Positions 1,984 through 2,199 of a DNA stretch of 10,506 bases are shown in pieces. Each line of letters begins with the position of its first letter. Position 1 is the stretch's first letter. The notes under the pieces were generated by a model. The model saw only the letters and a list, made by a program, of their open reading frames with translations, made no database searches and was not told where the DNA came from. This DNA comes from a virus. Lineage: Monodnaviria; Loebvirae; Hofneiviricota; Faserviricetes; Tubulavirales; Inoviridae. The DNA is taken from the IMG/VR virus record IMGVR_UViG_2619619131_000001; one strand, written 5' to 3'. A program made the translations under genes and the position numbers.

Positions 1984-2199
1984 TCACATTGCCTTTTTTT
2001 TCTTAAGTTCTTCTTTGCTTATTAGATCTTTCACCGCATCATCTAAGTAGTTGTCTATTAAGTGGTTTACTATCTCTGATGGTTTTAGTAGCTCACCTGT
2101 TTTATTACCGATTTCCAGCACTCTTCGTTTTAGCTCCAGTTTTCTGTTTTCGTTAATCCTTACGGTTGTGTCTCCGCGCTTTGTTTCTTTTTTCATCAA
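1984..2199 (-). CDS. Small putative transcriptional regulator (possible ribbon-helix-helix fold), divergent from the replication module; candidate phage repressor
   Basis: 70-71 aa basic protein (MMKKETKRGDTTVRINENRKLELKRRVLEIG...). Predicted short N-terminal strand followed by two helices. Start is TTG 2199 or ATG 2196, with AGAGG on the minus strand at 2211-2207. Its position mirrors RstR-like repressors of integrative filamentous phages. Confidence 0.55.
   Translation of the reverse strand: MMKKETKRGDTTVRINENRKLELKRRVLEIGNKTGELLKPSEIVNHLIDNYLDDAVKDLISKEELKKKKAM

What the first reader, a model, noticed from the sequence alone, without database searches (positions are those of the whole stretch)
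1984..2199. Divergent 71-aa basic protein as candidate prophage repressor
A small basic protein is encoded on the opposite strand immediately upstream of the replication module. Its predicted strand-helix-helix pattern would suit a ribbon-helix-helix DNA-binding fold. The position is analogous to RstR-like repressors that maintain lysogeny in integrative filamentous phages. I do not recognise the sequence itself.
Basis: inference. Interest (0 to 1): 0.45.

Follow-up and report, generated by a model that had tools for sequence, protein, structure and literature searches.

The report
Filamentous-prophage immunity repressor, ribbon-helix-helix type

The parts
1984..2196 (-). Gene for the 70-aa basic protein (stop TGA at 1986-1984; start ATG at 2196-2194).
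   Evidence: RefSeq CDS of the same length; pI 9.6; 30 synonymous / 6 non-synonymous against Salmonella; homologues
2206..2209 (-). Shine-Dalgarno GAGG, 9 nt upstream of the ATG
   Evidence: read from the sequence
2261..2268 (.). Candidate operator O1: perfect 8-bp palindrome CGCATGCG, 2 bp upstream of the -35 hexamer of the rightward promoter
   Evidence: only two copies in 10.5 kb, both here; 0.29 expected; G.ATG.GTATTTACA invariant in 7 loci from 6 genera
2304..2311 (.). Candidate operator O3: second CGCATGCG, 3 bp downstream of the -10 hexamer, over the expected transcription start; 43 bp from O1
2253..2260 (.). Imperfect site CCGCATAG, at the position where pre-CTX and VAI2 have a further GCATGC
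   Evidence: inference from the alignment
2274..2283 (.). Imperfect site ACAATGCGTG just after the -35 hexamer; relatives have ACATGC or GCATGC here
2271..2300 (+). Sigma-70-like rightward promoter TTTACA-18-TATGAT (10 of 12 matches), presumed to drive orf81, rep and the structural genes
   Evidence: the -35 is invariant and the -10 conserved in 7 aligned loci
2232..2240 (-). Candidate extended -10 (TGGAATAAT on the minus strand) for the repressor's own promoter. O1 would lie at about -30 to -40 of it. An alternative leftward promoter is GTGAGA-16-TATATT at 2342-2315.
   Evidence: read; a similar TGAAATAAT occurs in Salmonella; the alternative comes. Inference only.
2059..2345 (.). Heteroimmunity cassette: codons 1-46 of the gene, the whole intergenic region and the first 4 codons of orf81. 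It is replaced by unrelated sequence in E. coli TD225-C4, whose flanks are 97% identical.
1974..2377 (.). The same gene plus intergenic module, 97.8% identical, sits on a different phage backbone (Rep_trans/RstA-like rep) in E. coli E24377A and about 23 other genomes
2334..2579 (+). orf81, first gene of the rightward (presumably repressed) operon; function unknown (phrog_3104)
2581..4581 (+). Replication initiator (P2 gpA-type nickase), the main presumed target of repression
1666..1760 (.). Context: two inverted dif-like sites that fold into a forked hairpin at the hipA junction. This marks an XerCD/dif-integrated, CTXphi-style prophage.
   Evidence: dG -40 kcal/mol, z -10.7

Best explanation
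The gene encodes a 70-aa ribbon-helix-helix-type DNA-binding protein that serves as the allele-specific immunity (lysogeny) repressor of a filamentous prophage integrated at dif next to hipA. Inferred mechanism: two monomers pair their N-terminal strands (D9-T-T-V-R-I-N15) into a beta-ribbon that enters the major groove of CATG-centred palindromes. Thr11, Arg13 and Asn15 face the DNA, and Arg13 reads the outer G:C pair of GCATGC. Dimers occupy CGCATGCG at 2261-2268 (abutting the -35 hexamer) and at 2304-2311 (over the transcription start), plus weaker sites at 2253-2260 and 2274-2283. This occludes the rightward promoter TTTACA-18-TATGAT and silences orf81, rep and the structural and assembly genes. 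O1 lies between the divergent promoters, so the protein probably also autoregulates. The DNA-binding two-thirds of the gene and its operators travel together as a cassette. A phage with another allele (for example TD225-C4, whose intergenic region has TCATGA-like motifs) would therefore escape repression; this is heteroimmunity, as with rstR/ig-2 in CTXphi. Shown here: the gene is real, it is homologous to annotated RstR alleles, the motif positions are conserved and enriched, the motif covaries with residue 13, and the cassette is swapped. Inferred: dimerisation, the contacts, repression itself and its role in lysogeny.
For: Homology: 68-70% identity (E 1e-17) to 'RstR' / 'environmental RstR' of pre-CTX KR063268, CTXphi GQ466611 and GU942563, and VAI1/2, each divergent from rstA. 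Position: orthologues lie divergent from rep in Salmonella (Rep_trans), E24377A (Rep_trans) and this window (gpA-type). Fold. Operators: two CGCATGCG copies occur only in the intergenic region and bracket a promoter-like site. A roughly 55-bp core carrying O1, the -35, the -10 and O3 aligns across E. coli, Salmonella, Xenorhabdus, Arsenophonus, V. cholerae and V. anguillarum, while the flanks do not align. Covariation: 9 Arg13 loci have 19 GCATGC and 1 ACATGT in the 170 nt upstream, against 6 and 5 in 45 kb elsewhere. 7 Ala13 loci have 0 and 16, against 1 and 5 in 24 kb elsewhere. Modularity: breakpoints at 2058/2346 against TD225-C4 and 1974/2377 against E24377A. Experimental precedent: short allele rstR6 lowers its cognate ig-2 promoter about 11-fold in E. 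coli (1.94e4 against vector 2.18e5; PMC11509585 Table 2). The rstR6 primers encode MKKKYTSLRV... and ...KTDLKR. A V. cyclitrophicus phage protein with the same N-terminus is a family member (hhalign 98.8%). Tandem two-copy family members fit a dimeric functional unit.
Confidence: 0.8

Rival explanations
1. The protein binds the same sites but is not the lysogeny-maintaining repressor. It could act mainly as an autoregulator, as a Cro-like or copy-number modulator, or as an activator of one of the divergent promoters, tuning chronic phage production rather than silencing it.
For: A family member is encoded (unannotated) in the non-integrating coliphage If1, where there is no lysogeny to maintain. 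O1 lies between two divergent promoters. Omega and ParG-type RHH proteins are copy-number or partition regulators (established knowledge; an omega-like ORF is noted in phage PMBT54, PMC10534721).
Against: O3 sits over the expected start of the rightward transcript and O1 abuts its -35, which is the geometry of repression. Homologues sit at the rstR position of CTX-type prophages. The putative family member rstR6 represses its cognate promoter.
Confidence: 0.12
2. It is the RHH antitoxin or regulator of a small addiction module formed with the downstream 51-aa membrane protein (1765-1920, minus strand), and is not a regulator of phage replication.
Against: The downstream ORF is not part of the mobile cassette. 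In E24377A it is a diverged copy about 300 bp away from the gene. It has no counterpart downstream of the homologues in pre-CTX or VAI2, nor in the called genes of the Salmonella loci. The candidate binding sites lie at the rep-side promoter and covary with the protein. The protein has no extra C-terminal toxin-binding domain beyond a long helix.
Confidence: 0.04
3. The ORF is a chance reading frame or a decayed remnant in a defective prophage and has no function.
For: It is short, it is annotated only as 'hypothetical protein', and it has no Pfam match.
Against: There are 30 synonymous against 6 non-synonymous codon differences from Salmonella. 207 family clusters (representatives at 50% identity) score E<=0.001 in 1.84 billion proteins. 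16 positions are invariant across 31 sequences. A good SD and ATG are present.
Confidence: 0.01

Closest known systems
'Environmental' RstR of V. cholerae pre-CTX/CTXphi (ALF99878.1 in KR063268; ACV95592.1 in GQ466611; ADE80682.1 in GU942563), probably the rstR-4** allele (allele name not verified here), and the RstR-like ORF11 of V. anguillarum VAI1/VAI2
   Same: Homologous: 68-70% identity over residues 6-61, with an identical recognition strand GDTTVRINE. Same size if started at MEKRGD. Same divergent position upstream of the replication gene. Same GCATGC sites and the same TTTACA -35 in the intergenic region.
   Different: The host is Vibrio, not E. coli. The adjacent rep is RstA-type, not gpA-type. 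The C-terminal tail differs (…KKTGLKR against …EELKKKKAM). No orf81 lies between the promoter and rep. To my knowledge, and in the library searched, this allele has not been tested functionally.
Canonical RstR (El Tor/classical) of CTXphi
   Same: Same genomic position, the same presumed job (allele-specific repression of the rep promoter in ig-2, giving immunity), and the same habit of being exchanged together with its operators (PMC11509585).
   Different: Unrelated protein: 112 aa, Pfam HTH_3 at E 5e-16, hhalign probability 0.14% against this family. CTXphi is also co-repressed by LexA (established knowledge). No LexA box is present here.
rstR6 allele of pre-CTXphi (63 aa)
   Same: A short allele whose primer-encoded termini (MKKKYTSLRV… / …KTDLKR) match family members. 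It is shown to repress its cognate ig-2 promoter about 11-fold in E. coli.
   Different: Its recognition strand differs (YTSLRV), and so, presumably, does its operator.
Ribbon-helix-helix repressors: Arc and Mnt (P22), MetJ, CopG, Omega (pSM19035), ParG (TP228)
   Different: No significant sequence-profile match to any Pfam RHH family. The second helix is long (39-69). The loop between the helices is longer (GNKTGELLKPS).
CTX-I RstR / PM2 P16 lysogeny module (PMC12715192)
   Same: A repressor at the end of a dif-integrated element, exchanged horizontally between phage types.
   Different: PM2 P16 is annotated as an HTH protein and shows no similarity to this family (hhalign probability 0.04%).

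Membership tests
RstR-type immunity repressors of CTXphi-like (dif-integrating) filamentous phages (a functional/positional class) | Small gene transcribed divergently from the replication gene across an intergenic region that holds the rep promoter | tested here: met
   One extra small ORF (orf81) precedes rep.
RstR-type immunity repressors of CTXphi-like (dif-integrating) filamentous phages (a functional/positional class) | Sequence homology to a protein named RstR | tested here: met
   68-70% identity, E 1e-17, to 'environmental RstR' records. Not homologous to the canonical HTH RstR.
RstR-type immunity repressors of CTXphi-like (dif-integrating) filamentous phages (a functional/positional class) | Repressor and its operators are exchanged together as a heteroimmunity cassette | tested here: met
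   Breakpoints at 2058/2346 (TD225-C4) and 1974/2377 (E24377A); the allele sequences are.
RstR-type immunity repressors of CTXphi-like (dif-integrating) filamentous phages (a functional/positional class) | Allele-specific repression of the cognate rep promoter, and superinfection immunity | not testable with these tools
   Only indirect support: operator geometry and covariation, and a reporter result for the putative family member rstR6.
RstR-type immunity repressors of CTXphi-like (dif-integrating) filamentous phages (a functional/positional class) | Host element is an XerCD/dif-integrated filamentous prophage | tested here: met
   A full set of inovirus genes, and a dif-like forked hairpin next to hipA at 1666-1760.
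Ribbon-helix-helix (MetJ/Arc) superfamily | N-terminal strand with alternating polar and hydrophobic residues, followed by two helices | tested here: met
   Strand T10-T-V-R-I-N15; model with helices 16-33 and 39-69 at pLDDT 87.6. In the monomer model the strand is extended coil, as expected when no partner is present.
Ribbon-helix-helix (MetJ/Arc) superfamily | Structural similarity to solved RHH proteins | tested here: inconclusive
Ribbon-helix-helix (MetJ/Arc) superfamily | Match to a curated RHH sequence profile | tested here: not met
   No Pfam RHH hit for the protein. One ParG hit (E 0.025) among 31 members and one RHH_5 hit (E 0.0027) among 61. hhalign to ParG gives 66% probability.
Ribbon-helix-helix (MetJ/Arc) superfamily | Obligate dimer with an intersubunit two-stranded beta-sheet that reads the major groove | not testable with these tools
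   Only monomers can be modelled here. Indirect support: palindromic sites, motif covariation with strand residue 13, and tandem two-copy family members.

The most novel reading that the evidence does not exclude
'RstR' is not one protein family. Besides the well-studied HTH repressors there is an unrecognised, Pfam-less ribbon-helix-helix clade: 207 clusters (representatives at 50% identity) across gamma-proteobacterial inoviruses, including short V. cholerae alleles, ETEC and Salmonella dif prophages, and an unannotated ORF in coliphage If1. This clade serves as the swappable immunity repressor. Its specificity appears to follow a simple readable code: strand residue 13 against the outer base of an NCATGN palindrome (Arg with GCATGC, Ala with ACATGT, and a third strand type with TCATGA). 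Heteroimmunity groups of filamentous prophages could then be predicted from sequence alone.
Probability: 0.45. Interest if true: 0.55.

Novelty: new member of a known kind. Interest (0 to 1): 0.4.

Why it matters
dif-integrated filamentous prophages are common in enterotoxigenic and other pathogenic E. coli and in Salmonella. Their reverse-strand ORFs are still annotated as hypothetical proteins; the UPphi paper, for example, lists such ORFs as unknown. Identifying the immunity repressor and its operators tells us which prophages can coexist or superinfect. It gives a handle for inducing or curing these phages. It also links the E. coli elements mechanistically to the CTXphi paradigm. The finding further shows that 'RstR' alleles used for typing V. 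cholerae belong to at least two unrelated folds. For a specialist this is a useful annotation and a neat specificity pattern, but not a surprise in kind.

Tried and rejected
Pfam on the protein, on 31 close members and on 61 distant members gave no usable family.

PDB sequence-profile searches gave nothing significant; ParG reached E 0.32 over helix B only.

Foldseek against the PDB was not significant.

Megablast of the region against the phage collection gave no match.

No complete E. coli genome carries the whole 1600-2700 stretch, which is what led to the mosaic/cassette finding.

The genome-contig scan returned only 3 loci.

FpsR of Shewanella phage SW1 was considered as a relative and rejected: it is a 116-aa HTH protein.

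PM2 P16 / CTX-I RstR was considered and rejected.

Omega repressor matched only over the strand.

A LexA box was sought in the intergenic region and none was found.

Rfam gave only hairpin artefacts.

The rstR6 primer was not found in IMG/VR. The 2001 paper that described rstR-4** could not be retrieved, so the allele name of the closest Vibrio homologue remains unverified.

Full report
**Context.** The window opens with hipB (1-267) and hipA (to 1589). It continues with a complete filamentous-phage gene set:
- a P2 gpA-type replication nickase (2581-4581; Pfam Phage_GPA E 1e-48);
- a G5P-like protein, a major-coat-like protein, and a pIII with a long Gly/Ser repeat;
- a pVI-like protein, Zot/pI, and a secretin that runs off the end of the window.

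Between hipA and the phage lie two inverted dif-like sites. They are GGTGCGCATAATG…GTTATGTTGAAAA and its imperfect complement. Together they fold into a forked hairpin (1666-1760, dG -40 kcal/mol, z -10.7). This is the signature of a CTXphi-style, XerCD-dependent integration at the chromosomal dif site, which lies beside hipA in E. coli (established knowledge). The element is therefore an integrative filamentous prophage, the setting in which a lysogeny repressor is expected.

**The observation.** The minus-strand ORF at 1984-2199 is present.
- Start codon. The ATG at 2196 is the likelier start, with GAGG nine nt upstream. RefSeq calls the same 213-nt CDS in E24377A (WP_000712390.1). The product is therefore 70 aa.
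- Charge. It is basic: pI 9.6, 18 K+R against 13 D+E.
- Selection. Against the Salmonella orthologue (91% amino-acid identity), 36 codons differ. Thirty of these are synonymous, and 29 of 38 base differences are at third positions.
- Conservation. Sixteen residues are invariant in 31 sequences, clustered in R7-x-D9-T-T-x-R13-x-x-E16-x-R18-K19 and L46-I-D-N-Y50.

The gene is real. It is not directly adjacent to rep: an 81-aa ORF (2334-2579, phrog_3104, unknown function) comes first in the rightward direction.

**What it is related to.**
- Protein libraries. Pfam gives nothing. PHROGs places the protein in phrog_2503, 'unknown function' (E 1.5e-27).
- Phage genomes. A tblastn search finds 68-70% identity over residues 6-61 (E 1e-17) to genes annotated rstR in V. 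cholerae pre-CTX (KR063268) and in CTXphi (GQ466611, 'environmental RstR; transcriptional repressor'; GU942563, 'RstR-like… similar to RstR proteins found in non-O1, non-O139 strains'). It finds the same for the 'RstR-like putative transcriptional regulator' of V. anguillarum VAI1/VAI2. All of these lie divergent from rstA.
- Canonical RstR. The canonical 112-aa RstR in the same GU942563 record is an HTH_3 protein and is unrelated to this family (hhalign probability 0.14%). 'RstR' is therefore a positional name that covers at least two folds.
- Family size. The family is small but widespread in gamma-proteobacteria. More than 270 proteins were found in one search, and 207 clusters (representatives at 50% identity) among 1.84 billion proteins. 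None carries a Pfam domain, and many sit on 6-8 kb contigs.
- Occurrence in E. coli. Only 24 of 5,426 complete E. coli genomes carry the gene together with its intergenic region. The listed examples include ETEC-type strains such as E24377A.

- Foldseek. It found nothing significant, although RHH-type proteins are scattered through its list.
- hhalign.
- Duplicated members. Some distant family members are tandem duplications of the domain in one chain, as expected if the working unit is a dimer.

I regard the RHH assignment as probable but not proven. The dimer could not be modelled, and no curated RHH profile matches.

**Candidate operators.** The 137-bp intergenic region contains the only two copies of the 8-bp palindrome CGCATGCG in the window (2261-2268 and 2304-2311). 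The expected number is 0.29, and 5 of 200 shuffles reach two anywhere in the sequence. The two copies bracket the best sigma-70-like site in the region, TTTACA(2271)-18-TATGAT(2300) on the plus strand. One lies two bp upstream of the -35 hexamer. The other lies three bp downstream of the -10 hexamer, over the expected start.

The corresponding regions from Salmonella, Xenorhabdus, Arsenophonus, an IMG/VR contig, V. cholerae pre-CTX and V. anguillarum VAI2 can be aligned over about 55 bp: O1, -35 (invariant GTATTTACA), a CATG site, -10, then GCATG. The DNA on either side is unalignable.

**Covariation.** I took 16 non-redundant loci and counted hexamers in the 170 nt upstream of the gene.

| Strand type | Loci | GCATGC upstream | ACATGT upstream | GCATGC elsewhere in the loci | ACATGT elsewhere in the loci |
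|---|---|---|---|---|---|
| Arg at position 13 (DTTVRIN and variants) | 9 | 19 | 1 | 6 (in 45 kb) | 5 (in 45 kb) |
| Ala at position 13 (DTTVAIN and variants) | 7 | 0 | 16, mostly TTACATGTAA | 1 (in 24 kb) | 5 (in 24 kb) |

- In the alternating pattern T10-T11-V12-R13-I14-N15, residues 11, 13 and 15 would face the DNA in an RHH ribbon (inference). An Arg-to-Ala change paired with G-to-A at the outer base of an NCATGN palindrome is what direct readout would produce.
- The third allele type (TD225-C4, strand KSYNVPN) has several TCATGA-like motifs in its intergenic region (not quantified).
- Caveat: the Arg and Ala groups may each be monophyletic, so the number of independent events is small.

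**Modularity.**
- E. coli TD225-C4 is 97% identical to the window over 1-2058 and 2346-5700. In between it carries unrelated sequence: a different N-terminal 46 codons (the C-terminus …QEELKKKKAM is retained), a different intergenic region, and different first codons of orf81.
- Conversely, E24377A shares 1974-2377 at 97.8% identity, but on a different phage backbone whose rep is of the Rep_trans/RstA type. Salmonella shows the same arrangement.
- A DNA-binding domain that travels with its promoter and operator region, independently of the replication gene it faces, is the classic behaviour of an immunity region. It is what is described for rstR/ig-2 in CTXphi (PMC11509585).

**Experimental precedent.** PMC11509585 cloned eight rstR alleles and their ig-2 promoters and tested them in E. 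coli JM109. The short allele rstR6 (192 bp) reduced its cognate promoter from 2.18e5 (vector) to 1.94e4 and did not reduce the others. Its primers encode MKKKYTSLRV… and …KTDLKR. A V. cyclitrophicus inovirus gene matches 29 of the first 31 nt of the rstR6 forward primer. It encodes MTQKYTSLRVKEENKMKLERVAIDIS…, a clear family member (hhalign 98.8%, E 6e-17). So rstR6 very probably belongs to this family, but I could not obtain its full sequence. The allele closest to the window protein is probably rstR-4**, judging by its 261-bp annotated length and its 'environmental' label. That allele was not among those tested.

**Mechanism proposed.** Dimers bind the CATG-centred palindromes around the rightward promoter and block RNA polymerase. 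This keeps orf81, rep and the virion genes off in the lysogen and represses incoming phages of the same allele. O1 lies between the rightward -35 and a candidate leftward extended -10 (TGGAATAAT, 2240-2232; a similar element occurs in Salmonella), so autoregulation is likely. O1 and O3 are 43 bp apart, about four helical turns, and so lie on the same face of the DNA. No LexA box is present, so the induction route is unknown, unlike in CTXphi. All of this is inference from sequence.

**Rivals.**
- A tuning, autoregulatory or activator role is possible. A family member sits unannotated in the 'major intergenic region' of the non-integrating phage If1.
- An antitoxin role with the downstream 51-aa membrane ORF is unlikely. 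That ORF is outside the cassette, has no counterpart downstream of the Vibrio homologues, and does not appear among the called genes of the Salmonella loci.
- A spurious ORF is excluded.

**Novelty.** This is a new (E. coli) member of a known kind of system. What may be new is the recognition that the short RstR alleles form a Pfam-less RHH family with a simple operator code. No paper in the searchable library combines 'RstR' with 'ribbon-helix-helix'. The only RHH repressor-like ORF I found mentioned in an inovirus is an omega-like ORF in Pseudomonas phage PMBT54. The UPphi paper lists reverse-strand ORFs next to dif as unknown. Interest is moderate.

Noticed in passing
window 1666-1760: Two inverted dif-like sites separated by a GC-rich stem fold into a forked hairpin (dG -40 kcal/mol, z -10.7). 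It sits at the hipA-prophage junction and resembles the folded single-strand attP of CTXphi. This suggests XerC-mediated single-strand integration that would be irreversible in double-stranded form.
   Followed up: partly
window 1765-1920 (-): A 51-aa single-pass membrane ORF lies downstream of the repressor gene. E24377A has a diverged homologue (WP_001409659.1, 57 aa) with no DNA similarity but a shared protein motif (DLILDLLIKH… / EIILDLLMKH…), so it is probably a real gene. Function unknown; exclusion or a toxin are guesses.
   Followed up: partly
L023 (If1 NC_001954.1, reverse complement of 3643-6792): 1483-1674 (+) and 962-1405 (+): The annotated 'major intergenic region' of coliphage If1 contains an unannotated 63-aa member of this repressor family (MATPKRTTMAIVAERKLKLERLAIDAS…). 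It is closest to the TD225-C4 allele. Next to it is an ORF that looks like an IS200/IS605-type transposase, beside ORF348.
   Followed up: partly
window 2334-2579 (+); L005 9361-9558; L054 888-1070: A small ORF (81, 65 and 60 aa respectively) precedes rep in phages with unrelated Rep types. The window, TD225-C4 and Salmonella copies share an N-terminal motif ((I/V)(V/I)YYDY(F/S)P), and the window shares its first ~15 codons with the E24377A copy at 97.8% DNA identity. In the window its first codons belong to the swappable cassette. Function unknown (phrog_3104).
   Followed up: no
proteins P0155, P0163, P0179, P0189: Distant family members of 129-147 aa consist of two tandem copies of the domain in one chain. 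They may be single-chain pseudo-dimers.
   Followed up: no
window 528-1576 against L005 8347/8348: hipA is intact in the window. In E24377A it is internally deleted and annotated as a pseudogene, and the deletion joins hipA codon ~87 to the dif region.
   Followed up: no
window 6268-6775: The pIII gene carries a long, nearly perfect Gly/Ser repeat (GSGGSGSGSGGSS…, about 10 units). Such linkers vary in length between related phages and were noted for UPphi g3p in PMC7307601.
   Followed up: no
window 2581-4581: The replication protein is of the P2 gpA type (phrog_91, the family to which the phage-collection record assigns PM2 gene XII), not the RstA/Rep_trans type found with the same repressor cassette in E24377A and Salmonella. 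This indicates exchange of regulatory modules across replication types.
   Followed up: partly
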